Source: a virus. Taken from it: a DNA stretch of 58,693 nt. The DNA lies in the IMG/VR virus record IMGVR_UViG_3300035698_012504, positions 1 to 58,693 of that record. The stretch is one strand, 5' to 3'. The first letter of the stretch is position 1, and each line of letters starts with the position of its first letter. The notes beneath the pieces were generated by a model. The model had not been told where the DNA came from. It made no database searches and saw only the letters and a list, made by a program, of their open reading frames with translations. Below are positions 12,950 through 58,693 of this stretch, in pieces. The position numbers were made by a program, and so were the translations under genes.

Positions 12950-12995
12950 CTATTAGATGTATGATAGTTCGAAGTTACAATGTGAGGAGAGTAAA

Positions 12996-26315: not shown

Positions 26316-26319
26316 TAAA

Positions 26320-31056: not shown

Positions 31057-31082
31057 AAAGGCTAGGGATAGAGAAATATTAA

Positions 31083-32628: not shown

Positions 32629-32629
32629 T

Positions 32630-33085: not shown

Positions 33086-33087
33086 AT

Positions 33088-33573
33088 ATGATAAAATTAA
33101 ATGTTGGTTGCGGCACAGATATAAAGGAAGGGTATGTTAATATTGATGTTCGTAAAACTCATCCAAGTGTTAAAATAGCAGATGTATGTAAATTACCATA
33201 TAAAAATGGTACTGTAGATGAGATAGTTGCAAAAGATGTGTTTGAACATATATCGTTTCATGACACTCAGAAGCTTTTGAAACATTGGGTTTCTAAATTG
33301 AAGAAAGGGGGAAAATTATTCATTAAATGTCCTTCGATTAATATGATTGCAAAAACGATTATAAAGAACAATAATAACCTAGAAGAAATGGAGGATATGA
33401 TAAGAAGAATTTTTGGTGGTCAAAATTACCCAGAAAACACTCATTTGACAATAGGCCATCCAAAGTTAATGAGAAAATATTTGAAGGGTTTGGGCATTAA
33501 ACATAAAAACATTAAAATACAAAATGGTGGATTCGGAAACGGTACTAATATGAAAGTTTGGGTTGTAAAATAA
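33088..33573 (+). CDS. class I SAM-dependent methyltransferase
   Basis: LNVGCG motif I, then VDEIVAKDVFEHI and GGKLFI. Confidence 0.7.
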   Translation: MIKLNVGCGTDIKEGYVNIDVRKTHPSVKIADVCKLPYKNGTVDEIVAKDVFEHISFHDTQKLLKHWVSKLKKGGKLFIKCPSINMIAKTIIKNNNNLEEMEDMIRRIFGGQNYPENTHLTIGHPKLMRKYLKGLGIKHKNIKIQNGGFGNGTNMKVWVVK

Positions 33574-33583
33574 GGATATAGTT

Positions 33584-34114
33584 ATGAAAATATTTGGATT
33601 AGGGTTAGCAAAAACAGGGTCAAATAGTTTAAACAATGCTTTAAAAGTATTGGGATATTCTTCTATACATGGTCCAAAAAATTGGAAACAAATAGATGAT
33701 CATGAAGGAGTGACAGATGTCGTAATATTATTTCCATTTGAAGATATTTATAAACGATATCCACATGACAAATATATCTTAATGGTTAGGGATAATGATA
33801 AATGGATAGATTCATTAGAGTACCAATATTTTAAGAATTTGGGAGGACGTCCACAAATTCAGATAGATAGAATGATTGAATTTTATGGAACATATAACTT
33901 TAATCGAACCACATGGATAAATAGAAAGATTAAACATGAACACGATGTGAAAGAATCTTTTAAAGGTAATCCTAATTTTATAACTATGGATATATGTGGG
34001 GGAGTTGATGGATGGGACATTCTTTGTAATTTTTTAGATAAGGATGTTCCGGATATAATATTTCCTCATTCAAATAAAAGAAAAGTAAATAGGAAGAAAA
34101 AACTGACAGCATAG
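33584..34114 (+). CDS. sulfotransferase-family protein (Sulfotransfer_4-like), paralogue of 29766
   Basis: FGLGLAKTGSNSLNNALKVLG. Collinear with 29766-30293 through to ...FPH... Confidence 0.55.
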   Translation: MKIFGLGLAKTGSNSLNNALKVLGYSSIHGPKNWKQIDDHEGVTDVVILFPFEDIYKRYPHDKYILMVRDNDKWIDSLEYQYFKNLGGRPQIQIDRMIEFYGTYNFNRTTWINRKIKHEHDVKESFKGNPNFITMDICGGVDGWDILCNFLDKDVPDIIFPHSNKRKVNRKKKLTA

Positions 34115-34128
34115 GAGTATTAGAGGAT

Positions 34129-34914
34129 ATGAAAATAAACTACTACATAATGTCAGCATTTAATGTATGGTTTGATTATTTCAATTTAGCAATTCCTACA
34201 AATGAATGGACTAAAAGAAGATTAGATATTTTTGAGAAAACTACTTTAAGGTCTATTGGAAATCAGACTAATAAGAACTTTAAATATATTGTTTTCTTTT
34301 ACAAACCTGCATGTGACGAAGATGATATAGTAAGAATAGACGGCTATAGTGATATAACTCCTATCTTTTTAGATGAACCATTTAACTCTAAGATTCATTT
34401 GAAGCCCATACTTGAGAAAGATACAAAAGATGGTGATGTTGTAGTAGTGACAAAAATTGATTCTGATGATATATTATATCCTACGTTTGTTGATGTAGTA
34501 TATGGGTTGGTTGATACTGACTTTCTGGATAGAAATAAAGCATTTTATTGTTTTCCAAAAGGGTATCGTTATAGATTGTATGATTATTCTCTTTGGAAAG
34601 AAAAATGGACAACATGTTCTATTTTTACGATTGTTGAAAGAATAATTGATGGTGAATTACAATCTGCTTTTAGAGGATATGACTATAAGCATACTGAAGT
34701 GTCTAGAATGTTTAAATCTCAAAAACTTCAAAGACCAGTTAAGGGTATTGGAGCTATGTGGTTAAAATATGATAGTGAAGTATCTATGAATGTAAGAAAT
34801 AAAGATAAAATGTTAGCCAATAAGATTAAGCATAAATTTATAAAACTAGTTGATGATGATTTAGCTAGGCGCGTGTGTGATGATTTTAATATTCCTATAG
34901 ATAGTTTAAAATAG
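34129..34914 (+). CDS. putative rhamnosyl-transferase-like glycosyltransferase
   Basis: W..RRLDIFEKTTLRSIGNQTNKNF and TKIDSDDILYPTF. Paralogue at 48960. Confidence 0.4.
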   Translation: MKINYYIMSAFNVWFDYFNLAIPTNEWTKRRLDIFEKTTLRSIGNQTNKNFKYIVFFYKPACDEDDIVRIDGYSDITPIFLDEPFNSKIHLKPILEKDTKDGDVVVVTKIDSDDILYPTFVDVVYGLVDTDFLDRNKAFYCFPKGYRYRLYDYSLWKEKWTTCSIFTIVERIIDGELQSAFRGYDYKHTEVSRMFKSQKLQRPVKGIGAMWLKYDSEVSMNVRNKDKMLANKIKHKFIKLVDDDLARRVCDDFNIPIDSLK

Positions 34915-34924
34915 AGGATTCAAT

Positions 34925-35473
34925 ATGAAACAGAAAATGTCTGGTCGAGGTCGTAAAGATAGTAGAATTGCTTTACGAAAATATATAGAAGTGCTTCCTG
35001 GTGGAGTAATGGTGGAGGTTGGTAGTTGTAAAGGAGAGTCAACTGTACTGTTTGCAAAGAAGTTTAAGTTAGTGTTTGCAATTGACCCATGGGAAGGATT
35101 TTATCAATATGGAGATAAGAAAGATCAATTTCTAGATGCAGGAATGTTAAAAGAGGAAAGAGATTTTGATAAAGCTGTACATGGGGTTAGCAATATAGCT
35201 AAGATATGTTCTAAGAGTAATTTAGTTGTAGATAAGTTTGATGATAAATCTTTGGACTTTGTTTATATAGATGGATGCCACACCTATGAATCAGTTCGTG
35301 AAGATATATCCATTTGGCTTCCAAAAATTAAACCAACTGGTATGATTGGTGGACATGATTATAATCTTAAGGGTTGGCCTTTGGTTGTGAAAGCTATACA
35401 TGAATCTTTTGGAAAACCACCAGATATACGAATGAATGGGGCAAACTGGGCATATAGGAAGGTGGAATTATGA
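34925..35473 (+). CDS. class I SAM-dependent methyltransferase (Methyltransf_24/CmcI-like)
   Basis: MVEVGSCKGEST...AIDPW...YIDGCHTYESV...GGHDY. Confidence 0.55.
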   Translation: MKQKMSGRGRKDSRIALRKYIEVLPGGVMVEVGSCKGESTVLFAKKFKLVFAIDPWEGFYQYGDKKDQFLDAGMLKEERDFDKAVHGVSNIAKICSKSNLVVDKFDDKSLDFVYIDGCHTYESVREDISIWLPKIKPTGMIGGHDYNLKGWPLVVKAIHESFGKPPDIRMNGANWAYRKVEL

Positions 35474-40572: not shown

Positions 40573-43500
40573 ATGACAAAAGTTGACATGAGTGATTGGG
40601 TTTTTCCAATCAGGGAAAAGTTTAATTTGACAGAGAATTTTTTAGATCAATATACAAACGAGCAACCTAATTGGGGACCAGTTGGAGCTATTACATATAA
40701 AAGAACGTATAGTCGATATATTGAAAAAGAAGATAGATATGAAGAATTTTGGGAGACTCTCAAACGAGTAGTGGAAGGATGTTATACAATTCAACTAAAT
40801 CATTGTAAAAATTTAAGATTGTATTGGAATGCACATAAAGCACAGAAATCTGCTCAAAAAATGTTTGAGTTGATGTGGAATTTTAAATTTCTTCCTCCAG
40901 GGAGAATGTTGTGGACCCTTGGAGAAGATGTTGTTTGGAAAAAAGGAGTAGCTGTTTTATTAAATTGTGGATTTTGTTCCACTGAAGATCTACATTATGA
41001 TTTTAGTGGACCTTTTTGTTGGTTAATGGACGTTGCTTTATTGGGGGTAGGGTGCGGATTCGATCTAAAAGGGGCAGGAAAAGTTAAAATTCAAGAACCT
41101 AAGGTTGGAGATTATGTTTTTACTATAGATGATAGTAGAGAAGGTTGGAGAGATGCTGTGGAAGTAGTATTAAACTCTTATGTTCATAAATCAAAAATGC
41201 CCAGAGAATTTGATTTTAGTAAAATAAGACCTAACGGAAGTTTTATAAAAACATTTGGAGGCATTGCTCCCGGACCAGGTCCATTAAAATTATGTATAGA
41301 AGAGATAAAACTGGTTCTTAATAAATGTGTAGATAAATATATTACATCTGTAAATATAGTTGATATTTTCAATATAGTTGGGAAATGTGTAGTAAGCGGT
41401 GGACAAAGAAGGTCTAGTGAAATAGCAATAGGAGAATATGATGATATTGATTTTTTGAATATGAAAAATCCTGAGAAATATGAAAAGGAATTAAAGGATT
41501 GGAGATGGAATTCAAACAATTCAGTATTTGCTGAAGTTGGTGCAGATTATACACAATTAACCAAGCACATTATTAATAACGGTGAACCAGGAATAGTGTA
41601 TTTAGATAATATGAGAAAGTATGGGAGGATAAAAGATGGAGAGAAATGGGAAGATGAGGGAGTTTGTGGATTAAATCCCTGTGCTGAAATGTCACTATCA
41701 AAATATGAAATGTGTTTATTGTGTGAAACATTTCCAGCTAATCATGAAAACGAAGAAGAATTTTTAGAAACTCTTAAATATGCTTATCTTTTAGCTAAAA
41801 GTGTTACATTAGTACCATCTCATGATGAACGCACAAATCAAGTTATGCTTAGAAATAGAAGAATTGGGTTATCTATGTCAGGAATAACAGATGCTATTTA
41901 TAAATTTGGTAGACGTAGGTTTCTTAATGAGTTTTGTGATTCTGGATATAATAATATTAGAAAACTGGATAAATTATATTCTAGGTGGTTATGTGTACCG
42001 AAAAGTATAAAAGTAACTACGACAAAACCGAGTGGTTGTAGACCGGGTAGATCGTTAACTTCGACAGATAGAGGGATTTTATCTCTAGATGAATTATTAG
42101 AAGAACATCCTGAAGATTTGGAGTGGAACAACGATCACAGTGATAGTTATGTATACCAGAAAAATAGTAAAAATAAAATATTAAGAACATATAGAAATAG
42201 TACTTCTAAAATAATTAAAATTAAAATGAACTACAATTTAGATTTTGAATGCACCCCGAATCATATGGTGTTTGTTAGTGAACATATGAATGCTAGTAGT
42301 GAAAAAGGAGGATATAAGAGAATAGACGTCAACAAATGGATATGTGCCAATGATGTTCGAGCTGGCGATATTATTCATATTAGTATGAATTCTTATAGAA
42401 AAAATATTTGTTCAAAACTATCCCATTCAGCAATACCAGATACTTTTATTGGTGCTCGTGGAAATATTATAACTCAACCTGAATATATGAATAATGATCT
42501 TGCTTGGATTATAGGATATTTATATGGAGACGGTTGTTTGAGTAGACATAAATTTAGAACTAGATTTATAGATGAGAATAAATATAATCTGGAAAAAGCA
42601 AAAAAAATAATATATGATTTATTTGGATTAGACTCTAATATAAAACCTGCAAGTCAAGATAGAAACGCGTTTGTGCTTGAAATTGGGTCTCGGCATCTTT
42701 GGGACTTTTGGAATATTAATGGAATAACTAAATATGATGAACAGGGCAATATATCGGTAATTCCAAGAATTGTAAGAGAATCATCTAAAGAAAATATTTT
42801 AGCATTTATTTCGGGATTAATTGATTCGGATGGTTGTGTATTTGTTCGTGACGGCGATGTGGGAATATGTATTTCAACCGCCTATGATAATTTTGCAAAA
42901 AATATACAAGAAGTTGGATTTTCTGTTGGATTATGTTTTGGAAGATCTTTGAATACAGAAGGGGAGAACAAACAAGAAATTAAACATATATGGAATTTAA
43001 CATTAAATTCCCACACAGATATTAATTCTCTCCATGTATTATTAAAAACATCCAATAAATTAATAAAAATAAATGACATGCGAAATCCACCACATGATAT
43101 ATCATTTAAGTGTCTGACTGAATCTCAAAATGTTTTAATTTTAGGTAAAGTAGTAAGTGTACATGAATTAGAAGGGTATGAAGAAACGTATGATTTAGAA
43201 GTCGATAAAGATCATTGGTATTATTCCGGAGGTATAAAAAGTCATAATACTGTATCATTATTACCAGGAAGTAATCCGGGTATTCATTTTCCACACTCAG
43301 AATATTATATTCGAAGAATAGAATTTCAAAAAAACTCTCCTTTTATTAAACCACTAGAAATTGCCGGATATAAAAAAGAGCAGTCTTATTATAAAAAAAA
43401 TTCGTGGATTTTTGAATTTCCAATAAGAACTAAAAATTTCTTTAAATCCAAGAGAGATATTACTATATGGGAACAAATGGCTCTTCACGCAGATATACAA

Positions 43501-43803
43501 CACTATTGGTCTGATAATGGTGTATCACAGACTGTAACATTTAACGAAAATGAATCTAATTCGATTAAAGATGTGTTAGAAGTATATGAAGACAAAATAA
43601 AAGCTGTATCATTTTTACCTCTTGATGTGAAATCATATAAACAAATGCCATATGAAGAAATTACAAAAGAAAAATATGAATTATATATATCAACCCTAAA
43701 ACCTTTAAAATTATCGAAGATAAAAATGACTAAAGAAGAAGAGATAGAATCAAAAGAAACGCTAAAATTCTGCGATAATGGTAGTTGTGAAATTAAAAAA
43801 TAG
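40573..43803 (+). CDS. ribonucleotide reductase catalytic subunit (NrdJ-like; class not resolvable by eye) interrupted by an intein
   Basis: Active-site GLNPCAE, YKRTYSR, and TTKPSG|..|TVSLLPG re-joined across the intein. C-terminal Cys pair CDNGSC. Confidence 0.8.
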   Translation: MTKVDMSDWVFPIREKFNLTENFLDQYTNEQPNWGPVGAITYKRTYSRYIEKEDRYEEFWETLKRVVEGCYTIQLNHCKNLRLYWNAHKAQKSAQKMFELMWNFKFLPPGRMLWTLGEDVVWKKGVAVLLNCGFCSTEDLHYDFSGPFCWLMDVALLGVGCGFDLKGAGKVKIQEPKVGDYVFTIDDSREGWRDAVEVVLNSYVHKSKMPREFDFSKIRPNGSFIKTFGGIAPGPGPLKLCIEEIKLVLNKCVDKYITSVNIVDIFNIVGKCVVSGGQRRSSEIAIGEYDDIDFLNMKNPEKYEKELKDWRWNSNNSVFAEVGADYTQLTKHIINNGEPGIVYLDNMRKYGRIKDGEKWEDEGVCGLNPCAEMSLSKYEMCLLCETFPANHENEEEFLETLKYAYLLAKSVTLVPSHDERTNQVMLRNRRIGLSMSGITDAIYKFGRRRFLNEFCDSGYNNIRKLDKLYSRWLCVPKSIKVTTTKPSGCRPGRSLTSTDRGILSLDELLEEHPEDLEWNNDHSDSYVYQKNSKNKILRTYRNSTSKIIKIKMNYNLDFECTPNHMVFVSEHMNASSEKGGYKRIDVNKWICANDVRAGDIIHISMNSYRKNICSKLSHSAIPDTFIGARGNIITQPEYMNNDLAWIIGYLYGDGCLSRHKFRTRFIDENKYNLEKAKKIIYDLFGLDSNIKPASQDRNAFVLEIGSRHLWDFWNINGITKYDEQGNISVIPRIVRESSKENILAFISGLIDSDGCVFVRDGDVGICISTAYDNFAKNIQEVGFSVGLCFGRSLNTEGENKQEIKHIWNLTLNSHTDINSLHVLLKTSNKLIKINDMRNPPHDISFKCLTESQNVLILGKVVSVHELEGYEETYDLEVDKDHWYYSGGIKSHNTVSLLPGSNPGIHFPHSEYYIRRIEFQKNSPFIKPLEIAGYKKEQSYYKKNSWIFEFPIRTKNFFKSKRDITIWEQMALHADIQHYWSDNGVSQTVTFNENESNSIKDVLEVYEDKIKAVSFLPLDVKSYKQMPYEEITKEKYELYISTLKPLKLSKIKMTKEEEIESKETLKFCDNGSCEIKK
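42037..43248 (+). mobile_element. intein (404 aa) with a LAGLIDADG homing-endonuclease domain
   Basis: Starts with Cys (CRPGRSL..) and ends SHN with +1 Thr. Block B TPNH. Two LAGLIDADG motifs, LAWIIGYLYGDGCL and LAFISGLIDSDGCV. In frame, 1212 nt. Confidence 0.85.
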
Positions 43804-43813
43804 TTTTTTTTAG

Positions 43814-43823
43814 TGAGGACAAA
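43814..43823 (+). promoter_or_regulatory. TGAGGACAAA motif, site 3 (intergenic, 52 nt upstream of ATG 43875)
   Basis: Identical 10-mer. The match extends to 13 nt (TGAGGACAAATTA) with site 4. Confidence 0.45.
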
Positions 43824-43874
43824 TTAGTATAAGATAGTACCTCGTGTACAAATTAATTAAAAAGGAGAGAAACC

Positions 43875-48959: not shown

Positions 48960-49862
48960 ATGAATCCAGTCTGGTTTGAGAACAATAAAAAATATCAGGA
49001 CGAACTAAAGTCCCTTAGAAAGTTTAGAATAAATCCAAACGATATATGTCATATTGTCATAACCCATTTCAATATTAATCTAAGTAAAAACGTAGGGCAT
49101 ACTGGAAGAGAATATAAACGAAATTGGCAAAAGCCAATTCTTAAACAAGGAATTGGTAAAAAATGGATGCAACAAAGAACAGAATTATTTGATCAAATTT
49201 GTTATCCATCTATGTTAAATCAAACGAATCAGAATTTCGAATGGTTTACTTTTTTTGATAAGGATACAACTGATATAAAATCATACAGAAAATATAATCG
49301 AATGCATCCAATGCTTATACCATATAAGGATCCATTTAGATATCAGACACACATAATACAAAATCTCCTTATTGATCGAGGCATTAAAAAGAAGTGGTTT
49401 ATATTCACAAAGTTAGATAATGATGATGCTCTTAACAAAACATTTATAGATAGACTACAAAACATTTGGCTTCCGTATTGTATAAAACATAATAGAGAAT
49501 TTTCTATGGTTTGTTTTACAAGTGGCGTAATGGCCCTAAAGAGACCCGATGGAAAAAGTAAACTCATGACCAAAGAAGATAGATATGGACCATTCGTAAA
49601 TACAATAGAGAAATTTAATAAAGATTACAAGAAGTTTAAAACATGTTGGCATAGCTATCATACTACTATGCATGACAAAGCTTTTCCAGAGAGTGTAGTT
49701 AGATACACAGATAAGAGTGATCCTATGTGGTTTATATACGATCACGAATTTAATTTGTGTGATAGAGATCCAAGATTAAAGGAAAAGACCGATTATACTG
49801 GGACAGAGAAAGACCTAATAGAAAGGTTTAATATTAATCCTAAATACGTGAGGTTAAAATAA
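48960..49862 (+). CDS. putative rhamnosyl-transferase-like glycosyltransferase, paralogue of 34129
   Basis: WMQQRTELFDQICYPSMLNQTNQNFEW and TKLDNDDALNKTF. Confidence 0.4.
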   Translation: MNPVWFENNKKYQDELKSLRKFRINPNDICHIVITHFNINLSKNVGHTGREYKRNWQKPILKQGIGKKWMQQRTELFDQICYPSMLNQTNQNFEWFTFFDKDTTDIKSYRKYNRMHPMLIPYKDPFRYQTHIIQNLLIDRGIKKKWFIFTKLDNDDALNKTFIDRLQNIWLPYCIKHNREFSMVCFTSGVMALKRPDGKSKLMTKEDRYGPFVNTIEKFNKDYKKFKTCWHSYHTTMHDKAFPESVVRYTDKSDPMWFIYDHEFNLCDRDPRLKEKTDYTGTEKDLIERFNINPKYVRLK

Positions 49863-50870: not shown

Positions 50871-51131
50871 ATGTTTGGGTTTCCAACTACTAGAGTCGGT
50901 AATGGACTTCAAGTTAAGAATGGAATTATTGTTAAAACCGGTAGGTATAATATACTTAATCTTAGAGAAGAAGGGGTTAATGTTGAGTTAGGAGATGTTA
51001 AAATTGAAGACGGGTTTCTTATAATCAATAATATTCCGATTGTTCCCCCGATTCCATTAGCGATATTACCACCAGGTACTATATATGCTCTTCCGTCTGG
51101 TGTAGTGATGGTTAAACTTCCGTCATCATAA
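50871..51131 (+). CDS. hypothetical protein (86 aa)
   Basis: AAGGAG RBS. The competing minus-strand ORF 50909-51430 is rejected. Confidence 0.6.
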   Translation: MFGFPTTRVGNGLQVKNGIIVKTGRYNILNLREEGVNVELGDVKIEDGFLIINNIPIVPPIPLAILPPGTIYALPSGVVMVKLPSS

Positions 51132-51155
51132 TTATTAAAATAGAGGAATATAAAA

Positions 51156-51482
51156 ATGAAAAGATCTATTTCGGATATATTTTTAAATGAAGGATTACAG
51201 ACTTCAAAAGTATCAATAGAGTTAGCAGAATTTGATAACATCTCAAAGGCTGTTAGTAAATTAAAAAAAGTTGCAGATAAATATACAAAGCAAGAAGAGC
51301 AGTTAAATTCTGGTGGGGCTGATGATTTACCAGAATTTGAATTACAAATCAGTAAGCCTATGTTTAAAACTAAATATAAAGGTAATAATGAACTATTAAT
51401 AACTTTAGTTCGGTTAGTAGATATTACCAATCATAAATTAGTTTATGAGGAAAGAGTTATTACGAAAATAAAGGTAATATAG
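51156..51482 (+). CDS. hypothetical protein (108 aa)
   Basis: TAGAGGAA RBS. Confidence 0.6.
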   Translation: MKRSISDIFLNEGLQTSKVSIELAEFDNISKAVSKLKKVADKYTKQEEQLNSGGADDLPEFELQISKPMFKTKYKGNNELLITLVRLVDITNHKLVYEERVITKIKVI

Positions 51483-51493
51483 AAGGGGTAATA

Positions 51494-51940
51494 ATGGCTA
51501 GATTTTTACCATATATTTTACACGATCATTATAGTATGGGACGAGCAAAGCATCACTATGATCTTAGAATTAAATATCCTAATAGATTAAGTGTAGCTTC
51601 TTGGGCACTTCCTAAACATAGAATTCCTGACGTTCATGAAAAAACTTTAGCTATGCAAGGACACGACCATGATATGTGGTGGCTTAAAGCTGACCACTAT
51701 GTAATTCCTAAAGGGGAGTTTGGAGAGGGAATAGTTAAGGTACTACAGAAGGGAATGATTGAGCTTAGGGGATGGGGAAAGTTTCATATTACATTTGTAG
51801 TAGAAGGTCCTATTATGGATGGAAAATTTACTTTAATACGGCCTCCGGCTTTTGTTAGTCAAGATAGAAAAAGAATAAAGAAGAATCCGAGGTCGGGGAA
51901 GTCCTGGTTATTTATAAAAGCAAGACCAGAGAAAGATTAG
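51494..51940 (+). CDS. LigD 3'-phosphoesterase (PE) domain-like protein
   Basis: HHYDLRI, SWALPK, GHDHDMWW and IPKGEFGEGIVKV are collinear with the LigD-PE motifs HYDFRLE, SWAVPKG, EDHPL.Y and IP.G.YGAG.V. Confidence 0.65.
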   Translation: MARFLPYILHDHYSMGRAKHHYDLRIKYPNRLSVASWALPKHRIPDVHEKTLAMQGHDHDMWWLKADHYVIPKGEFGEGIVKVLQKGMIELRGWGKFHITFVVEGPIMDGKFTLIRPPAFVSQDRKRIKKNPRSGKSWLFIKARPEKD

Positions 51941-51941
51941 T

Positions 51942-52190
51942 ATGCATAAACGTATAAGAGAAATTAAAAGAGTTATTCATGGCGCAACTGGAGTTACTAA
52001 ATCCGTTACGGGAATAAGTCTTGCATCTGAAGAAGAAATTAAAAGAAGAAGAAAAATTTGTTCAAACTGTGAATTTGCTTTAAAATATAAACAAAGTACA
52101 ACTAGAGTACATAAATGTAGTGCATGCGGGTGTATTTTGCGCCACAAGACGAGACTGAAGAATGAATCGTGCCCAAAAAATAAGTGGTAG
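51942..52190 (+). CDS. small Cys-rich (zinc-ribbon-like) protein (82 aa)
   Basis: CSNC...CSACGC...C motif. Confidence 0.55.
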   Translation: MHKRIREIKRVIHGATGVTKSVTGISLASEEEIKRRRKICSNCEFALKYKQSTTRVHKCSACGCILRHKTRLKNESCPKNKW

Positions 52191-52199
52191 AGAGAATAT

Positions 52200-53009
52200 A
52201 TGAATAGAAAATATAATCAAAAATATGTTGAAGAATATTTTAAAAAATATGAATGTAAACTAATTGATACCTATAGAAGTACTAAATATCCGATAAAATT
52301 TAGGTGTTCCTGTGGAAATATATCATTTATAAAATTTCTTCATTTTAAAAAGAAACATAAATGTAAAAAATGTAATTATGCAGAAACTAATAAATATAAA
52401 AAACATACTCAGGATTATGTTGAAGGGTATTTTAAAGAAAATGGGTGCGAATTATTAGATAACTACAGGAATGATAAATCTACATTAATTTACATCTGTT
52501 CTTGTGGAAACACTTCAAATATAAGATTTTCAGATTTTAAGAAAGGTCAGAGATGTATGAAATGTGCTATAAAAAAGAGATCGGGAAAGAATCATTATAA
52601 TTGGAATCCAGATAGGCAAAAAATAGAAGTAAGGAGAAAAGTAGACGTAGCATGCAGGTCTCTAATATATTGTACATTAAAAGCAACAGGTCATAAAAAA
52701 ACATGCAAAACAGAAAACATGCTTGGATATTCTAGAGGTGACTTTTTAAATAAACTCAAAAGAGATCCATTATTTGAGAATTGGAAGAATAACTCTTATA
52801 ATTATCATATAGATCATATATTTCCAATAAAATCATTTATAGATGAAAAAATATATGATCCTAAAATAATAAATGCCCTTGATAATTTACGCATATTACC
52901 AAGTCATAGTAATTGGAAAAAGAGTTCAAAATGCGATAAACTTTTGTTTAATAAATATTTAAAAAATACCACCACAGATTATATCGAGGAGGAAATCATA
53001 TGTACATAA
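52200..53009 (+). CDS. HNH homing-endonuclease-like protein, family copy 3 (269 aa, full length)
   Basis: Two zinc-ribbon modules, NWNPDR linker, and HNH core YHIDHIFPIKSF...NLRILPSHSNWKK. Confidence 0.75.
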   Translation: MNRKYNQKYVEEYFKKYECKLIDTYRSTKYPIKFRCSCGNISFIKFLHFKKKHKCKKCNYAETNKYKKHTQDYVEGYFKENGCELLDNYRNDKSTLIYICSCGNTSNIRFSDFKKGQRCMKCAIKKRSGKNHYNWNPDRQKIEVRRKVDVACRSLIYCTLKATGHKKTCKTENMLGYSRGDFLNKLKRDPLFENWKNNSYNYHIDHIFPIKSFIDEKIYDPKIINALDNLRILPSHSNWKKSSKCDKLLFNKYLKNTTTDYIEEEIICT

Positions 53010-53728
53010 GTGAAAGTTTTTTGATGAGCGTAGAATTTAAACGCGCTCTAGGAGATCTTATGGAAGCTCTAGTCGGAGAAGAACTAGATGAGCCAGGATC
53101 CATTCAAGAAATTTATGAGATTAGCATAAATAAAATTGTAACAGATGATACAGTTAGTACAGAAGAAATGATAGATAGATTAAACATCTGTGAAAATTTA
53201 TTTGATACCTTTACCGAACACATTCAAGAACTATTATTAACAGAGACATCTAGAGAGGGGTTAATGAGTAGAATTGATGATAGGCAATCTCAGATAGATG
53301 TTCTAAGTGGTCCTTCTAAAGGTAAGATAAGAGATATTCCTAGGATGGGTACAAAATTTGTTGATACAATGGATCTAGTCATGGCAAAAGTTAATGATAT
53401 AAGTAAAAGAGCAAAAGAAATTCACGGGGATTGGAAACATATTAAAGGTACTGCTGCACTAGTATCTTCTATAGCAGTAATTGGTATTATAGCATTAGTA
53501 ACTAGAAAATTATATAGGAAGCATGTACATGGTGAGTGCCAGAAATATAGTGGTAAGGATTTATATATTTGTAAAATACAAAGATCAAAAGAAATAGAAG
53601 AAGCATTATTATCTCAGATGTCAAAATGCGATAAAACAGATAAGCCTAAATTATGTAAACGTAAAATAGAAGACACAATGAAGAAAATCAGAAAAGATAG
53701 AGATAAATGGGAAAAGAAGTTATTATAA
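53000..53728 (+). CDS. MY[IV]SE-family protein with a central TM helix and a C-terminal Cys4 domain (242 aa)
   Basis: N-terminus MYISESFLMS. TM helix AALVSSIAVIGIIALV. C-x10-C-x18-C-x8-C. Confidence 0.7.
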   Translation: MYISESFLMSVEFKRALGDLMEALVGEELDEPGSIQEIYEISINKIVTDDTVSTEEMIDRLNICENLFDTFTEHIQELLLTETSREGLMSRIDDRQSQIDVLSGPSKGKIRDIPRMGTKFVDTMDLVMAKVNDISKRAKEIHGDWKHIKGTAALVSSIAVIGIIALVTRKLYRKHVHGECQKYSGKDLYICKIQRSKEIEEALLSQMSKCDKTDKPKLCKRKIEDTMKKIRKDRDKWEKKLL

Positions 53729-53729
53729 A

Positions 53730-54476
53730 ATGATTAGACATTTAGTTTCTGTTATAATTCCCTGCTTTAATCATGGTAAATTTTTAGGGGAATGTATAAA
53801 ATCAGTATTAGCACAAAAATATCAAAATTTTGAAATCATTATTATAAATGATGGGTCCACTGATAATACAAGTGATGTAATTTCTAAATGGAAAAAAATA
53901 GATAAAAGAATACGATCAATAAATAATAAAGATACTAAGGGTCCCGCCATATCTAGAAATAAAGCAATTAGACAATCGCGGGGGAAATATATTTTACCAC
54001 TAGATGCGGATGATAAAATAGATGCAAGATTTATTTCAAAATGTTATCCGTTTATAACTCCAATGGGAAGACATGATATAGTATATACCGATGTACAATT
54101 TTTTGGAGCATTTAATGAGATAAAAATAATGGGTAAATATAATTATAAAAATTATGCTGCTAAAAATCAATTTGTAAATACAGCACTATATCATAAAAAA
54201 GATTTTAGGGAAGTAAAAGGATATAATACAACACTGGAAGGGTATGAAGACTGGGAGTTCGGTATAAAACTAGGGGAAGCAGGACACTATGGAATAAGGG
54301 TCCCAGGCCCGTTGTTTTACTATAGGAGGACAAGAGGATCTAGGAACGATCAGGCTCACAAGAAAGAGTTTGAGATATGGAATAAAATATCAGAGTTACA
54401 TCCTCAATTCCAACGGTTTGATAAAAATAAAAAAAGAATTGACAAGTATATAAAAGAGAATGATAGAAGAAAATGA
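53730..54476 (+). CDS. GT2 family glycosyltransferase
   Basis: VIIPCFN..IIIINDGSTD...LPLDADD...YEDWEFG. Confidence 0.8.
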   Translation: MIRHLVSVIIPCFNHGKFLGECIKSVLAQKYQNFEIIIINDGSTDNTSDVISKWKKIDKRIRSINNKDTKGPAISRNKAIRQSRGKYILPLDADDKIDARFISKCYPFITPMGRHDIVYTDVQFFGAFNEIKIMGKYNYKNYAAKNQFVNTALYHKKDFREVKGYNTTLEGYEDWEFGIKLGEAGHYGIRVPGPLFYYRRTRGSRNDQAHKKEFEIWNKISELHPQFQRFDKNKKRIDKYIKENDRRK

Positions 54477-55291
54477 ATAAAAAATATACAATAGAATATA
54501 TACGAAAATATTTAGAGGATAAGGGATGCAAATTATTAGAAGAAATTTATGTTAATCCGCATACTAAAATAAAATGCATTTGTTCTTGCGGAAAAGAAAA
54601 AAATAGTTCTTGGAATACATTACGACGGTCTCCTTATTGTAGAAGTTGTTCTGCTAAAAATAGAAAAGATTTACATAAGTTTAATTATGAGGATATTAAA
54701 AAGATTTTTTTCGATAAGGGTTGTGAACTCCTTGAAAAAGAATATATTAATAATAAAACAAAAATGAAATATAGATGTAGATGTGGGAATATATCATCTA
54801 TAACTCTATCTCATTTTATCAGCAAAAGAAGAAATAATGGAAAAGGTAGTTTGTGTAAACAATGTAGAAAAGAAAGAACAAGCGGTAAAAATAGTAAATC
54901 GTGGAATCCAAATAGGGAAGAAGTCGAAGATAAACTACGGATTCATATATTATGTAAATCTCTTTTATTTTGTACCACGAAGGCAACAGGAAAAAGAAAG
55001 TCTCGAAGTACAGAAAAAACTTTGGGTTATTCTCGACAAGATTTACTAAAACATTTAAAGAAGTGTAAAAATTATAATCTTTGGAAAGAAGATACAACCA
55101 ATTATCATATTGATCATATTATTCCAATAAAATCTTTTGTTGAAAATGGAATAGATGATCCTAAAGTTATAAATTCTTTAGATAACTTACAAATATTATC
55201 AGCTGAGGAAAATCTAAAGAAAAGTGGAGTATATGAAAAACAAGCATTAGAGAATTTTTTAGAAAAGAAAGGTATTATTTTATGCGTATAG
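54473..55291 (+). CDS. HNH homing-endonuclease-like protein, family copy 4 (272 aa, full length)
   Basis: Two zinc-ribbon modules, SWNPNR linker, and YHIDHIIPIKSF...NLQILSAEENLKKSG. ATGA overlap with the GT2 gene. Confidence 0.75.
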   Translation: MNKKYTIEYIRKYLEDKGCKLLEEIYVNPHTKIKCICSCGKEKNSSWNTLRRSPYCRSCSAKNRKDLHKFNYEDIKKIFFDKGCELLEKEYINNKTKMKYRCRCGNISSITLSHFISKRRNNGKGSLCKQCRKERTSGKNSKSWNPNREEVEDKLRIHILCKSLLFCTTKATGKRKSRSTEKTLGYSRQDLLKHLKKCKNYNLWKEDTTNYHIDHIIPIKSFVENGIDDPKVINSLDNLQILSAEENLKKSGVYEKQALENFLEKKGIILCV

Positions 55292-55788
55292 CATTTTCGG
55301 GTTCACATTCGGTTGGGAAAACCACATCTGTATTAGAAAAAGCACATGAGATGAAAATGATACACCCTACTAAATCTGTAGGTATTTTTATGGAGAACGC
55401 TAGACACTCCCCATTTAAAATTAATAAAGATGGAAACTCAAAAAGTCAAATGTGGATATTTTGTTCACAACTACAACATGAATTATTTTTAGAAGCAAAT
55501 TATGATATTGTTATATGTGATAGAACTATCATTGATTCAATAGCATATACTAGAATAAATGGTGGTGGAGATGATGAATTAGCGTTGGCTATGATAGAGA
55601 TGGCCAAACATCATATTGAGTCATATGACAAAATTTATTTTAAAACAATAATAAATAATGATTATTTGGTAGAAGATGGGGTTAGAGATGGAGTAGATAG
55701 GTCATATAGGATGACTGTAGAGCACCATATGGTAAATATTTACGATGAACTATTAAAGTGTAGAGAAGTCAACATAGAGTATATTTAA
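55282..55788 (+). CDS. P-loop NTPase, AAA_28/NadR-kinase-like (possible nucleoside/nucleotide kinase)
   Basis: Walker A GSHSVGKTT at the N-terminus. ICDRTIIDSIAY. Confidence 0.45.
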   Translation: MRIAFSGSHSVGKTTSVLEKAHEMKMIHPTKSVGIFMENARHSPFKINKDGNSKSQMWIFCSQLQHELFLEANYDIVICDRTIIDSIAYTRINGGGDDELALAMIEMAKHHIESYDKIYFKTIINNDYLVEDGVRDGVDRSYRMTVEHHMVNIYDELLKCREVNIEYI

Positions 55789-55789
55789 A

Positions 55790-56155
55790 ATGACACTAAG
55801 ACATCAAGAAGACGTAAGACACATAAAGAGTAGGTTGCGAATCTTAGAAAAAGATAAACACCCACCTATATCTGTTAGTACATTTGACGCTGGCGATATA
55901 ATGGATCAGTTAACATTAATAAATAATAGATTAATGGAAATAGTAGGAATAATGAAAGATCCATCAGTAACATACACATCTACTGGAAAAGGAAATGAAA
56001 AAAATGAGGACAAATTAAAGAAGGGCTCTAGTCCTACGTATATACCTGAGCCAGATATATCAGATATTACTTCACGTACAAACAAAGTTAGTAAACGAAC
56101 AAAGACTGTTGATATTGCATCACAATTAGATAAACTAGGAGAATTAGAAAGGTAA
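55790..56155 (+). CDS. hypothetical protein (121 aa) upstream of the actin-like gene
   Basis: ORF starts 1 nt after the upstream stop. Contains TGAGGACAAA site 4. Confidence 0.65.
   Translation: MTLRHQEDVRHIKSRLRILEKDKHPPISVSTFDAGDIMDQLTLINNRLMEIVGIMKDPSVTYTSTGKGNEKNEDKLKKGSSPTYIPEPDISDITSRTNKVSKRTKTVDIASQLDKLGELER
56005..56014 (+). promoter_or_regulatory. TGAGGACAAA motif, site 4 (inside a CDS, 144 nt upstream of the actin-like gene ATG)
   Basis: Identical 10-mer. 13-nt identity with site 3. Confidence 0.3.
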
Positions 56156-56157
56156 GC

Positions 56158-57222
56158 ATGGATATAAAACATTATTATGGGTATGATTTAGGTACAATGA
56201 ATCAAGTTTCCGCCTGTCAGGCAACTGAAGGTAAAATTACTATAAATACAGTAAGAAATATGTTCTCAGAGATTGATACTGATGTTATAGCAATAGAAGA
56301 ATTAGAAAATACAGATTTAGATTACATAGTTAGTAATGAGGACGATGTGGAAAGAGTCTTTATTATTGGTGAAGATTGTTTTAGATTTTCCCAGATATTT
56401 GGTATTACTCCAAGACGTCCTATGGAAGGAGGCGTCATCTCCAGCAAGGACATAGATGCTATAGATATACTCACTGTGATGGCTAAGAAGCTAGTCAAAA
56501 CGCCTCCTAAGGGACAAAGAGGCTATTGTGTATACTCAGTGCCAGCAGACACAGTAGACGCTGACAATCCTCCTGTGCTGTATCATGAACAGGTGTTCTC
56601 AAAGGTTTTAGATTCTATCGGATATGATGCTAAACCTTTAAATGAAGGAATGGGGATAATTTTTTCAGAGTGTGCAGATACGAACTTTAGCGGAATAGGG
56701 ATCAGTTGTGGATGTGGTTTAATTAATGTAGCGTTTTCTTACAGAGGAATTATGAGTCTAGCATTTGCTATCAAGAGAGGAGGAGACTGGATTGATAAAC
56801 AAGTGTCTGATTCTATTAATGTTCCTGTAAGTAGAGTTACAAGATTAAAAGAGAGTAAATTAGATTTAGATAATCCTATTATATCAAAGAAAAAAGCAGA
56901 GAAACGAGCATTAGAGTGTCTGGTTTTCTTCTATAAAGATATGATAGAATATATATTAAAAACATTTTGTAAAGAATTTGAAAAATCTTCTGATGCTCTC
57001 GAAATAGGAGAAGATATTCCGATCATTGTATCGGGTGGAACATCTTTACCCAATGGGTTTATAGAATGTTTTACAAAAGTTTTCGATGAAAACTATAGAG
57101 ATATATTCCCATATAATGTCTCTGATATAAGAAGAGCAAAAGACCCATTAGCGGCTGTAGCAACAGGAAATTTAATTTATGCCCTCCACTCCAAAAAACA
57201 AAAAGAAAAAAAATCAAAATAA
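56158..57222 (+). CDS. MreB-like actin-fold ATPase
   Basis: Phosphate-1 YGYDLGTMNQV, RRPMEGGVISS (MreB RPM.DGVI), phosphate-2 GIGISCGCGLINVA, adenosine motif IIVSGGTSLPNGF. Confidence 0.7.
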   Translation: MDIKHYYGYDLGTMNQVSACQATEGKITINTVRNMFSEIDTDVIAIEELENTDLDYIVSNEDDVERVFIIGEDCFRFSQIFGITPRRPMEGGVISSKDIDAIDILTVMAKKLVKTPPKGQRGYCVYSVPADTVDADNPPVLYHEQVFSKVLDSIGYDAKPLNEGMGIIFSECADTNFSGIGISCGCGLINVAFSYRGIMSLAFAIKRGGDWIDKQVSDSINVPVSRVTRLKESKLDLDNPIISKKKAEKRALECLVFFYKDMIEYILKTFCKEFEKSSDALEIGEDIPIIVSGGTSLPNGFIECFTKVFDENYRDIFPYNVSDIRRAKDPLAAVATGNLIYALHSKKQKEKKSK

Positions 57223-58075
57223 TTATTATGTATATATTTATCTAGATCCCCGAAAACCTGGAAAATATGTTTATCCTAATTTGGGATTTGGATTATTATA
57301 TGAACCATTTTATGTTGGCGCAGGTCATGGTCGGAGATATAAATCCCATCTATCTGAAGCAAGTCGATGTTTTTCTAAAAGAAACCAATTAAAACTTAAC
57401 AAAATTAGAAAGATTTTTAGGTATGATCTTGAACCTATTATAATTAAATTAAAAATTGAGATGAATAAATTAAATGCATTTAATGAAGAAAAACATATAA
57501 TAAAAAATATAGGCAGATATGATTTAGGAAATGGTCCTCTCACAAATTTAACAGATGGTGGAGAGACACCAATAAATCAAAAATGGTCAAAAGAGAGAAG
57601 AAAAAACCATAGTAAAATTTTTACTGAGTTAAATAAAAACAAAGAATATAAAGAAAAAGTTTCTAGAGGTTTAAAGAATTTTTGGTCTATTGAAGAAAAT
57701 AGAAGTAAAAGAATAAAAGAAATTACTGATTCTCTAAATAGACCTGAAGTAAAGAAAAAGATATCCAAAATACAGACAGAAATTTGGAAAAATAGAAGTG
57801 ATGAAAAGAGATTAGAACACAAAAACAAGATAAAATCTGCATGGAATAATGATGAGTTAAGGAACAAAATATCTGATATTAATAAAGGAAATACATATGG
57901 AACAAAAAATAAATATAAAATAATTGATCCAACTGGAAAAATATATATTGTAGATAACTTATCTAAATTTTGTGAAGAAAATAATTTAAACGTAGTTGGA
58001 ATGAATCATGTGGCATTCGGTCGACAGAAAAGCCATAAAAATGGTTGGAAATGTTCTAAAATAGGAAAGAAATAA
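57179..58075 (+). CDS. GIY-YIG homing endonuclease with NUMOD-like repeats
   Basis: YVYIYLDP...PFYVGAGHGRRYKSH...N..E. Lys-rich repeats (KNHSKIFTELNK, RSKRIKEITDSLN...). C-terminal DNA-binding-like IDPTGKIYIV. Overlaps the upstream gene by 44 nt. Confidence 0.7.
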   Translation: MPSTPKNKKKKNQNNYYVYIYLDPRKPGKYVYPNLGFGLLYEPFYVGAGHGRRYKSHLSEASRCFSKRNQLKLNKIRKIFRYDLEPIIIKLKIEMNKLNAFNEEKHIIKNIGRYDLGNGPLTNLTDGGETPINQKWSKERRKNHSKIFTELNKNKEYKEKVSRGLKNFWSIEENRSKRIKEITDSLNRPEVKKKISKIQTEIWKNRSDEKRLEHKNKIKSAWNNDELRNKISDINKGNTYGTKNKYKIIDPTGKIYIVDNLSKFCEENNLNVVGMNHVAFGRQKSHKNGWKCSKIGKK

Positions 58076-58089
58076 AAGGAGGATGTGTC

Positions 58090-58230
58090 ATGGCACTATT
58101 CGTAGACGGAAATGGAAATGAAGTAGGAATTAACTTTATTGATGGTATGTTTTATGTAAACGGTGGAACTACATACAATAACCTTAGTGAAGTTCAAGAA
58201 TATCTCACAGCAAGAGCAGAACCTGCGTAA
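58090..58230 (+). CDS. small protein (46 aa; below the ORF-track cutoff), paralogue of 58285
   Basis: AAAGGAGGA RBS. Shares G.T[YF]NN[LI][ST]EV.[ET]Y with the next gene. Confidence 0.5.
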   Translation: MALFVDGNGNEVGINFIDGMFYVNGGTTYNNLSEVQEYLTARAEPA

Positions 58231-58284
58231 AGAATATAATTATATAATTATACAAAGTACTTAACATTTAGGAGGAAATACATC

Positions 58285-58497
58285 ATGATGATTATAGCTG
58301 CTAGTACAGGATTAGCATTAAATATAACATGGGCCGATGGCTTATGGCAAGATTGTTATGGAAATACATTTAACAATATTACTGAAGTAGAGACTTATGC
58401 TGCTACATATACCCACGATGGATATATGACACCAGACATTCATGTCTCAAGTTTAGAACTAACTGATATTGTTGGTGATTTTATAGCACATAGTTAA
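58285..58497 (+). CDS. small hypothetical protein (70 aa)
   Basis: TAGGAGGAA RBS. Confidence 0.65.
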   Translation: MMIIAASTGLALNITWADGLWQDCYGNTFNNITEVETYAATYTHDGYMTPDIHVSSLELTDIVGDFIAHS

Positions 58498-58510
58498 TCT
58501 AGTTAAAATA

Positions 58511-58557
58511 AACGACTATTAGCTAGCGCGGCTTGTCTGCGTTAGCTATTAGTTGTT
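58511..58557 (+). terminator. long imperfect hairpin (19 pairs, 1 mismatch, 2 G-U, 9-nt loop) after a stop codon
   Basis: AACGACTATTAGCTAGCGC ggcttgtct GCGTTAGCTATTAGTTGTT, followed by a short T-containing stretch. Confidence 0.5.
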
Positions 58558-58609
58558 TACAGAGAAATAAAGGAAGTGGAAGTAGTGTTGGTTATAATAG
58601 GAGAGAAAA

Positions 58610-58693
58610 ATGGAAGAAGATAAAAAAGGTAAAGTAAATAGACCGTTTGGTGGATGTGATCATGCAGTAGATCCATATATAACTGGATTCTTT
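58610..58693 (+). CDS. 5' end of a gene running off the window (partial)
   Basis: ATG 58610 follows TAGGAGAG. Open to the window end (MEEDKKGKVNRPFGGCDHAVDPYITGFF). Confidence 0.45.
   Translation, partial: MEEDKKGKVNRPFGGCDHAVDPYITGFF

What the first reader, a model, noticed from the sequence alone, without database searches (positions are those of the whole stretch)
55282..57222. Phage-encoded MreB-like actin homologue with an upstream small protein and a P-loop NTPase
56158-57222 carries all the actin-fold motifs in MreB-like form (DLGTMN; RRPMEGGVIS; GIGISCGCGLINVA; IIVSGGTSLPNGF). It is preceded by a 121-aa unknown protein that contains the TGAGGACAAATTA motif 144 nt before the actin ATG, and by a small Walker-A NTPase.

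Established knowledge: plasmid and phage actin-like proteins (ParM, AlfA, Alp7A) segregate DNA with a small adaptor protein. Phage tubulin PhuZ positions replication compartments.

Inference: this may be a phage cytoskeletal module that positions phage DNA or assembly sites, subverts host MreB-dependent wall synthesis, or maintains an extrachromosomal prophage. The small upstream protein would be a candidate adaptor.
Basis: partly seen in the sequence, partly recalled or inferred. Interest (0 to 1): 0.65.

Follow-up and report, generated by a model that had tools for sequence, protein, structure and literature searches.

The report
Phage volactin-type actin with conserved adaptor
A large bacteriophage carries a gene pair, an actin-like filament protein of the family so far studied only in salt-loving archaea (volactin) and a small partner protein, and the same pair recurs in hundreds of huge-phage genomes, which points to an undescribed phage cytoskeleton.

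Summary
The three ORFs and all four quoted actin motifs are real. The 354-aa protein (56158-57222) is not an MreB. It is a full-length member of Pfam PF25216 "Volactin" (209 bits against a cut-off of 35) and about 35% identical to Haloferax volactin. Its predicted fold is closest to BeeR, crenactin and MreB.

Relatives occur on at least 330 IMG/VR viral contigs, many of them 200-618 kb, and in two published huge-phage genomes.

The 121-aa upstream protein (55790-56155) has no detectable homologue when searched alone. It nonetheless belongs to a fast-evolving partner family found upstream of the actin gene in 81 of 88 loci. Two C-terminal peptide motifs define that family: [FY]IP and an amphipathic helix of the form hD-A---L--L. 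The helix motif recurs in the membrane protein encoded directly upstream of volA in haloarchaea.

The Walker-A gene (55282-55788) is a thymidylate-kinase-like protein. It is conserved only in the closest relative and is not part of the module.

Best reading: an ATP-driven filament plus a peptide-docking adaptor, sitting in the replication and recombination block of a large T4-like phage. The cargo is unknown. I found no centromere-like repeats and no description of this family in phages in the literature searched.

The parts
56158..57222 (+). Volactin-family actin-fold ATPase, 354 aa. This is the filament subunit.
56185..56196 (+). Phosphate-1 motif D10-L-G12-T13
   Evidence: D10, G12 and T13 are invariant in 32 homologues.
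56692..56727 (+). Phosphate-2 loop G179-IGISCGCGLI-N190. The family has Ser where MreB has Asp.
   Evidence: G185, G187 and N190 are invariant and S183 is nearly invariant. The loop aligns to MreB DIGGGTTE in the hhalign comparison. Inteins are inserted at this site in some relatives.
57034..57042 (+). Adenosine motif G293-G294-T295
   Evidence: Invariant in 32 homologues.
55790..56155 (+). Partner (candidate adaptor), 121 aa. It has two N-terminal helices, a disordered linker and C-terminal peptide motifs. Its stop codon lies 2 nt before the actin ATG.
   Evidence: The only homologue found when it is searched alone is the identical sequence. No Pfam or PHROG hit. AF2: helices 3-21, 34-56, 91-95 and 109-119; pTM 0.22. 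Partner-family HMM E 4.6e-15. The leave-clade-out HMM finds only this ORF among the window's 389 six-frame ORFs, E 5.8e-4.
56039..56065 (+). Partner motif 1: Y84-IPEPDISD-92, the family signature [FY]IP[STDE]x[IVD]
   Evidence: Alignments. I85, P86, D89, S91 and D92 are invariant within the window clade.
56105..56152 (+). Partner motif 2: C-terminal amphipathic helix T106-VDIASQLDKLGELER-121, family consensus hDDAxxALKALRK
   Evidence: Alignment. Helix 109-119 in the AF2 model. The same motif scores >=5 bits in 66% of haloarchaeal volA-upstream membrane proteins, against 0 of 959 other ORFs and 0 of 280 shuffled tails.
56005..56017 (+). It is coding sequence here, for N72-E73-D74-K75-L76.
   Evidence: Position. 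D74 and K75 are invariant in partner homologues. Two other copies are intergenic.
55282..55788 (+). Neighbouring P-loop gene, AAA_28 / thymidylate-kinase-like. Judged NOT part of the module.
   Evidence: Pfam AAA_28 1.6e-9. phrog_2107 thymidylate kinase 4e-14. A homologue is found only in L008/L169, where it sits next to the RNR gene and has a weak Thymidylate_kin hit. The ~180-aa gene at that position in L004 is unrelated and L006 has none there.
57179..58075 (+). GIY-YIG homing endonuclease. A mobile insertion that overlaps the last 44 nt of the actin gene and breaks the ancestral gene order.
   Evidence: Pfam LEM-3_GIY-YIG 4.7e-11. Relatives have a small ORF, a ~128-aa ORF and a RecA-like gene directly after the actin. 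The window's contig reaches the 128-aa and intein-containing RecA genes only after this insertion.

Best explanation
Genes 55790-56155 and 56158-57222 form a two-gene cytoskeletal module of a large T4-like phage.

**Filament subunit.** The 354-aa protein is a volactin-family actin-fold ATPase. It most likely polymerises, with ATP, into dynamic filaments in the infected cell (inferred).

**Adaptor.** The 121-aa protein is its dedicated partner: an elongated protein with no globular fold. I infer two steps:
- The conserved C-terminal peptides dock on the filament, as the C-terminal helix of ParR docks on ParM. These peptides are the [FY]IP motif and the amphipathic helix hD-A---L--L.
- The N-terminal helices self-associate or hold a cargo.

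**Likely role.** The pair sits in the replication, recombination and nucleotide-metabolism block. In relatives the order is PhoH, partner, actin, a ~128-aa protein, then a RecA/UvsX-like gene. Cellular relatives of the actin are fused to ParB-HTH or HU domains. The most likely cargo or purpose is therefore the organisation of phage DNA replication and recombination inside the cell. This is the weakest step.

**What is shown:** family membership, fold, conservation of the gene pair, the shared motifs, and the phage context.

**What is inferred:** polymerisation, the docking mode, and the cargo.

**Excluded neighbour.** The adjacent Walker-A gene is a nucleotide kinase and is not part of the module.
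For: **Family**
- Pfam Volactin: 209 bits, full length.
- 34-37% identity to haloarchaeal volactins, including Haloferax species.
- Volactin forms dynamic filaments in vivo (PMC10869688).

**Fold**
- AF2 model pLDDT 92.7.
- Foldseek: top hits are MreB, MamK and BeeR.
- Nucleotide-binding motifs are invariant.

**Phage context**
- Window gene content.
- 330 IMG/VR contigs carry relatives.
- Relatives occur in the huge-phage genomes LR745208 and LR756511.
- The locus is syntenic with a 236-kb contig.

**Partner**
- The HMM hits a same-strand ORF upstream of the actin gene in 81 of 88 loci. Six of the seven misses have under 1 kb of upstream DNA.
- The linkage persists although the other neighbours differ between clades.
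- The leave-clade-out test succeeds.
- LR745208 has the partner too.
- Motif 2 is specific to the haloarchaeal volA-upstream protein.
- The partner is predicted to be helical and disordered, with a C-terminal helix.

**Link to DNA**
- The RecA-like and PhoH neighbours.
- ParB-HTH and HU fusions in relatives.
- A Dps-like gene inserted between partner and actin in one viral clade.

**Precedent**
- In the CGP3 prophage the adaptor gene alpA precedes alpC in a co-transcribed operon (PMC4446434).
Against: - No test here shows polymerisation or partner binding. A prediction of the complex could not be run.
- The partner has no recognisable DNA-binding domain, and no repeat array lies nearby.
- Many of the 88 loci come from related huge phages, so part of the synteny may reflect shared ancestry rather than function.
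- The ParB-HTH and HU fusions are in Planctomycetota, not in phages.
- The one characterised family member acts in cell shape, not on DNA.
- The motif-2 matches in haloarchaea are weak per copy, at 5-9 bits.
Confidence: 0.6

Rival explanations
1. Host-shape takeover. The phage actin, tethered by its partner, reshapes or enlarges the infected cell or blocks its division. This would parallel volactin's role in the rod-to-disk transition, or work by interfering with the host MreB-directed wall machinery.
For: The only studied family member is a cell-shape determinant (PMC10869688). The haloarchaeal neighbour that carries the shared helix motif is a 4-TM membrane protein. One Planctomycetota member is fused to a Wzz/BY-kinase envelope protein. 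The window carries many glycosyltransferases.
Against: The protein is not an MreB family member. No MreC, MreD or RodZ-like gene was found among the neighbours scanned. The phage partners have no transmembrane segment. The gene sits among DNA-metabolism genes rather than envelope genes in all window-clade relatives.
Confidence: 0.15
2. ParMRC-like partition system that segregates an extrachromosomal (plasmid-like or pseudolysogenic) phage genome. The 121-aa protein would be the centromere-binding adaptor.
For: An adjacent actin gene and small adaptor gene, as in ParM/ParR and AlpC/AlpA. A C-terminal helix that could dock as ParR's does. ParB-HTH and HU fusions in cellular relatives.
Confidence: 0.1
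3. A non-polymerising actin-fold ATPase, of the Hsp70, EutJ or PilM type (a chaperone or regulatory ATPase). The small protein would be its client or cofactor.
Against: The top structural matches are all filament formers. Sequence family membership is with volactin, which polymerises in vivo and carries the same Ser. There is no substrate-binding domain, and no Hsp70 or EutJ Pfam hit.
Confidence: 0.1

Closest known systems
Volactin (VolA, HVO_2015) of Haloferax volcanii; Pfam PF25216
   Same: Same sequence family, with a full-length Pfam match and about 35% identity. Same motif set, including Ser at phosphate 2. In both cases a conserved gene directly upstream on the same strand carries the hD-A---L--L helix motif.
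   Different: This one is encoded by a phage, not an archaeal chromosome. Its partner is a small soluble protein with an extra [FY]IP motif, not a 4-TM membrane protein. Its neighbours are DNA-metabolism genes. Its role in cell shape is untested.
AlpC/AlpA of the Corynebacterium glutamicum prophage CGP3
   Same: A phage-encoded actin-like protein with a co-transcribed adaptor gene placed upstream of it. It is needed for efficient phage DNA replication (PMC4446434).
   Different: AlpA binds a DNA consensus sequence in its own promoter; no DNA-binding domain or repeat was found here. Sequence relatedness was not tested. The window protein has no PHROG family.
ParMRC, Alp7AR and AlfAB plasmid partition systems
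   Same: An actin-fold filament plus a small adaptor encoded next to it. Docking through a C-terminal helix is plausible.
MreB
   Different: 16-18% identity. No hit to the Pfam MreB_Mbl model or the NCBIfam MreB models. No mreCD or rodZ context.
BeeR and crenactin
   Different: 16-18% identity, and a different sequence family.
PhuZ tubulin spindle of Chimalliviridae jumbo phages
   Same: A cytoskeletal polymer encoded by large phages that organises the infected cell (PMC7950403).
   Different: PhuZ has the tubulin fold and a different lineage of phages carries it. No nucleus-shell gene was looked for or seen in the window.

Membership tests
Volactin family (Pfam PF25216) | Match to the family HMM above the gathering score, over the full length | tested here: met
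   209.3 bits against a cut-off of 35; profile positions 3-321 of 321.
Volactin family (Pfam PF25216) | Full-length similarity to the founding haloarchaeal proteins | tested here: met
   34-37% identity over residues 8-342 to Haloferax, Halorubrum and other Halobacteria; tblastn E about 1e-66.
Volactin family (Pfam PF25216) | Dynamic polymerisation in vivo | not testable with these tools
   Shown only for H. volcanii VolA (PMC10869688).
Volactin family (Pfam PF25216) | Role in disk-shape morphogenesis | not testable with these tools
   The host is unknown and no phenotype data exist.
MreB | Match to the MreB family models (Pfam PF06723; NCBIfam MreB models) | tested here: not met
   No PF06723 hit at E<=0.1. 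The only NCBIfam hit is FtsA at 16.7 bits.
MreB | Actin fold with MreB-like subdomain layout | tested here: met
MreB | Genetic association with mreC, mreD or rodZ | tested here: not met
   The neighbours are endonucleases, a glycosyltransferase and a kinase-like gene. In relatives they are PhoH and RecA-like genes.
ParMRC-type (type II) partition | Actin-fold NTPase with an adjacent small adaptor gene | tested here: met
   The partner gene ends 2 nt before the actin start and is conserved in 81 of 88 loci.
ParMRC-type (type II) partition | The adaptor has a DNA-binding (RHH or HTH) domain | tested here: inconclusive
   No Pfam or PHROG domain in the window's partner or in eight longer partners. 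AF2 shows only helices, at low confidence.
ParMRC-type (type II) partition | A centromere of repeated sites next to the operon | tested here: not met
   No repeat family with more than 2 copies and no significant tandem array in 51000-58693.
Known phage actin-like families in PHROGs or BFVD | Sequence or structural match to a catalogued viral protein family | tested here: not met
   No PHROG hit at E<=0.01. The best BFVD match has TM 0.6 at 10-13% identity, and the named matches among the best few are Hsp70 homologues.

The most novel reading that the evidence does not exclude
Volactin-type actins with a peptide-docking adaptor form a third, widespread cytoskeletal system of huge phages, alongside the PhuZ tubulin and the ParM/Alp-type actins. 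Their adaptor helix (hD-A---L--L) would be an ancient, portable filament-binding peptide shared with haloarchaea and Planctomycetota. In haloarchaea it sits on the membrane protein encoded upstream of volA, which would then be the so-far unknown anchor of volactin filament tips.
Probability: 0.4. Interest if true: 0.8.

Novelty: new variant of a known kind. Interest (0 to 1): 0.66.

Why it matters
**Gap in the literature.** Phage-built cytoskeletons are so far known mainly from the PhuZ tubulin of nucleus-forming jumbo phages and from one prophage actin, AlpC. The two broad jumbo-phage reviews I could search (2021 and 2026) do not mention actin-like proteins. No paper in the library mentions PF25216, and none of the 14 volactin papers listed is about phages, judging by title and abstract opening.

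**What this finding adds.**
- A well-defined actin family on hundreds of viral contigs.
- A partner that ordinary sequence searches cannot detect.

**Experiments it makes possible.**
- Do huge phages outside Chimalliviridae organise the infected cell with filaments?
- What do those filaments carry?
- Is the neighbour of volA, which carries the same helix motif, one of the volactin-binding factors that the Haloferax study left unidentified?

Tried and rejected
**Searches that found nothing**
- Near-identical or related DNA in 50,697 phage records.
- The 121-aa protein searched alone against 5.8 billion proteins: only itself.
- Pfam, PHROG and NCBIfam on the partner and on longer partners: no credible domain.
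- Partner-actin fusion proteins among 272 family members.
- The partner's N-terminal domain inside extended actins.
- Pfam and PHROG annotation of the other genes conserved around the actin in the main viral clade.
- Centromere-like repeats.
- tRNAs in the window.

**Readings I rejected**
- MreB membership.
- The Walker-A protein as a module component.
- TGAGGACAAATTA as a binding site for the module. It is coding sequence here. The tool's shuffle test gives 3 hits against 0.21 expected, but that does not correct for the motif having been picked after the fact. By my estimate, tens of exact 13-mer pairs are expected by chance in 58.7 kb.
- An archaeal host, which the best binned hits hinted at (Thermoplasmatales MAG contigs). 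The window has a bacterial-type Pth, a PolI-type 5'-3' exonuclease and a T4-type clamp loader, and the flanking recombinase is RecA-like. The host remains undetermined.

**Caveats on two analyses**
- The NJ tree is midpoint-rooted and has no outgroup, so I draw no conclusion from it about the direction of gene transfer.
- A prediction of the actin-partner complex was not possible with the tools allowed.
Full report
**1. What is in the sequence**

The stretch 55282-57222 holds three tightly packed + strand ORFs:
- 55282-55788: 168 aa, with Walker A GSHSVGKT.
- 55790-56155: 121 aa.
- 56158-57222: 354 aa.

The 13-mer TGAGGACAAATTA is at 56005-56017, inside the 121-aa gene, where it encodes N72-E-D-K-L76. 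The gene on each side is a homing endonuclease:
- An HNH type at 54473-55291.
- A GIY-YIG type at 57179-58075, which overlaps the last 44 nt of the actin gene.

**2. The window is part of a large phage**

All long ORFs are on one strand and G+C is about 0.31. Recognisable genes:
- ThyX
- a bacterial-type peptidyl-tRNA hydrolase
- a T4-type clamp loader
- a primase
- about ten glycosyltransferases
- an ATP-grasp enzyme
- a class II ribonucleotide reductase split by an intein
- a 5'-3' exonuclease
- several homing endonucleases

The clamp loader's best matches are the Ralstonia jumbo phage RsoM2USA and T4-like cyanophages, at 33-36% identity. No related DNA exists in 50,697 phage records. The same protein lies on contigs of up to 80 kb. 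The closest relative's locus, on a 236-kb IMG/VR contig, is syntenic with the window. Its order is PDDEXK, LigD_N, RNR with intein, AAA_28, partner, actin, RecA-like. The host is unknown. The gene content points to a bacterium.

**3. The 354-aa protein**

*Family*
- It matches Pfam PF25216 "Volactin" over the whole profile: 209 bits against a gathering score of 35, E 1.3e-61.
- It does not match MreB_Mbl at E<=0.1. FtsA scores only 18.5 bits, below that family's cut-off.
- NCBIfam gives no MreB hit and PHROGs gives none.
- A sequence search of the PDB gives only FtsA, at E 0.11.
- A scan of 185,579 species genomes shows 34-37% identity over the full length to the chromosomal volactins of Haloferax, Halorubrum and many other Halobacteria.

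*Structure*
- An AlphaFold2 model built on 32 homologues is confident, with pLDDT 92.7 and pTM 0.91.
- Foldseek against the PDB ranks MreB, MamK and BeeR first, at TM 0.6-0.7 and 16-18% identity.
- The protein therefore sits with the filament-forming actins. The margin over Hsp70 is small, so the fold alone does not prove polymerisation.

*Motifs*
- The nucleotide-binding motifs are invariant across the family.
- The family carries Ser where MreB has the phosphate-2 Asp.
- Volactin itself forms dynamic filaments in vivo (PMC10869688).
It is wrong as a family assignment.

**4. Distribution**
- The exhaustive profile search finds 489 cluster representatives (50% identity clusters) at E<=1e-30.
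- The IMG/VR scan finds 330 viral contigs with a relative. About a quarter of the 80 loci kept lie on contigs of 200-618 kb.
- In the annotated phage collection, only two unannotated huge-phage genomes carry it: LR745208 (485 kb) and LR756511 (595 kb).
- BFVD holds no close structural relative.
- Cellular members fall into a tight haloarchaeal clade and a Planctomycetota group with long N-terminal extensions.
- NCBI already names one Planctomycetota member "disk-shape morphogenesis protein volactin".

**5. The 121-aa protein is a conserved partner**

Searched alone, it finds nothing but itself among 5.8 billion proteins, and it has no Pfam or PHROG family.

*Evidence from gene order*
- In the loci of actin homologues at 45-50% identity, a 113-135-aa ORF sits in the same place. 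It shares the motifs EDKxK and [FY]IP[DE]xD(T/I)SD.
- Across more distant loci, the ORF upstream of the actin gene is 170-280 aa. It ends in an acidic stretch, then [FY]IP[STDE]x[IV], about 20 variable residues, and a helix hDDAxxALKALRK with a basic tail.

*Statistical tests*
- An HMM of this C-terminal module hits a same-strand upstream ORF in 81 of 88 loci. Six of the seven misses have less than 1 kb of upstream DNA.
- In about two thirds of the loci the partner gene is directly adjacent. In the rest, one gene lies between them. In one viral clade that gene is ferritin/Dps-like.
- An HMM built from 27 partners of distant clades only, applied to all 389 six-frame ORFs of the window, returns exactly one: 55790-56155, at E 5.8e-4.
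- The published huge phage LR745208 has the partner too.
- The linkage holds while the other neighbours change between clades. This argues for function rather than inherited gene order alone.

*Predicted shape*

AlphaFold2, run on the single sequence at low confidence, predicts two N-terminal helices, a disordered linker that holds the EDK and YIPEPD motifs, and a C-terminal helix at residues 109-119.

*The DNA motif*

**6. The helix motif reaches beyond phages**
- In 56 haloarchaeal loci, a roughly 300-aa protein with four hydrophobic segments is encoded directly upstream of volA. In about 50 of them it is on the same strand with a gap of 28-290 nt.
- Its tail carries two copies of the motif, sGVDDAVxGLxxLxGG and sTDDQTAALxELRxxQ.
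- An 18-residue HMM made only from viral partners scores >=5 bits in 66% of these proteins. It does so in 0 of 959 other ORFs from the same loci and in 0 of 280 tail-shuffled controls.
- In one Planctomycetota locus, the gene upstream of a plain volactin ends in KMEDALAKLKRMQGG. I judged this by eye, in a single locus.
- The Haloferax study saw filaments touching the membrane only by their tips, and it left volactin-binding factors unidentified.
- The shared helix is therefore a candidate filament-docking peptide. This is inference.

**7. The Walker-A gene is a neighbour, not a component**
- It matches AAA_28 and the PHROG thymidylate-kinase family.
- A homologue is present only in the closest relative. 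There it lies next to the RNR gene and has a weak Thymidylate_kin hit.
- The gene at that position in L004 is unrelated, and L006 has none there.

**8. Ancestral gene order**
- Relatives in the window clade share the order PIN-PhoH, a ~180-aa gene (absent in L006), partner, actin, a ~57-aa gene, a ~128-aa gene, then a RecA/UvsX-like gene.
- An identical contig that runs past the window's end carries the 128-aa homologue and an intein-containing RecA-like gene. They follow an inserted block made of the GIY-YIG endonuclease and four small ORFs.
- The module therefore belongs to the replication and recombination region.

**9. Hints about the cargo**
- Among the N-terminally extended Planctomycetota members, at least seven carry a ParB-type HTH, one carries HU, and one is fused to a Wzz/BY-kinase.
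- These fusions tie the family to DNA and, less often, to the envelope.
- They are in cellular relatives, not in phages.
- No iteron array lies near the window's genes.

**10. Verdict**

- Best explanation: an ATP-driven volactin-type filament with a peptide-docking adaptor, which probably serves the spatial organisation of phage DNA replication and recombination (0.6).
- Rivals: host-shape takeover (0.15), ParMRC-like partition (0.1), and a non-polymerising ATPase (0.1).

I found no description of this family in phages in the searchable literature. That library is incomplete, so priority cannot be asserted.

Noticed in passing
P0131, P0128 (relatives); list: Some volactin-family genes are split by inteins that carry HNH or LAGLIDADG endonucleases. 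The insertion is at the phosphate-2 loop, profile positions about 180-196. About 20 of the best 150 cluster representatives are 700-800 aa long with two matched stretches.
   Followed up: partly
P0157, P0161, P0166, P0169, P0170, P0171, P0181, P0266, P0177; L168:4860-8676: Planctomycetota carry volactin domains fused to a ParB-type HTH, to HU, to a zinc ribbon or to a Wzz/BY-kinase. In L168 a plain volactin and a ParB-HTH-volactin lie side by side on a chromosomal contig.
   Followed up: partly
L093-L167, e.g. L111:2965-3864 (Haloferax denitrificans): In haloarchaea, a roughly 300-aa protein with four hydrophobic segments is encoded directly upstream of volA. Its tail carries two copies of the helix motif found in the phage partners. 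The volactin paper does not discuss this gene.
   Followed up: partly
L045:3286-3936, L056:3320-3940 and 19 further IMG/VR loci: In one viral clade a ferritin/Dps-like gene (phrog_3636, 'DNA binding protein') sits between the partner and the actin.
   Followed up: partly
window 6789-7037 and 8517-8786: Two paralogous small ORFs contain His-rich (HL/HP)n repeats, encoded by TTCACC arrays of about 16.7 copies. Function unknown.
   Followed up: partly
window 52200-53009 and 54473-55291: Two paralogous HNH-type endonuclease ORFs, 39% identical. Between them lie a 242-aa ORF and a family-2 glycosyltransferase.
   Followed up: partly
window 58090-58230 and 58285-58497: Two paralogous mini-proteins of 46 and 70 aa share the motif T(Y/F)NN(L/I)(S/T)EV. 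They lie within the block inserted between the actin gene and the ancestral downstream genes.
   Followed up: partly
window 43814-43826 and 12940-12952: TGAGGACAAA(T/C)TA also occurs in two intergenic spots. One is just after the RNR stop codon. The other follows a hairpin and lies 4 nt before ATG 12957. It could be a promoter or ribosome-binding-site element, or chance.
   Followed up: partly
window 40573-43803; L001:11484-13139 (just beyond the window's 3' end): Both the class II RNR and the RecA/UvsX-like gene are interrupted by LAGLIDADG inteins. Free-standing HNH and GIY-YIG endonucleases are unusually dense in the last 12 kb of the window.
   Followed up: partly
window 24654-35000, 48960-49862, 53730-54476: A cluster of about ten glycosyltransferases, followed by a methyltransferase, an ATP-grasp enzyme and a glycerophosphodiester phosphodiesterase. 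Possibly DNA or surface glycan modification.
   Followed up: no
L066 and L079 (IMGVR_UViG_3300025141_000016, 297 kb): One viral contig carries the partner-actin locus twice, about 160 kb apart. This could be a duplication, a terminal repeat or an assembly concatemer.
   Followed up: no
L088 (Thermoplasmatales MAG contig, 54.5 kb), L089, L090: The best hits binned as cellular are contigs assigned to Thermoplasmatota MAGs, and they carry the phage-type partner. They may be misbinned viral contigs or archaeal viruses.
   Followed up: no
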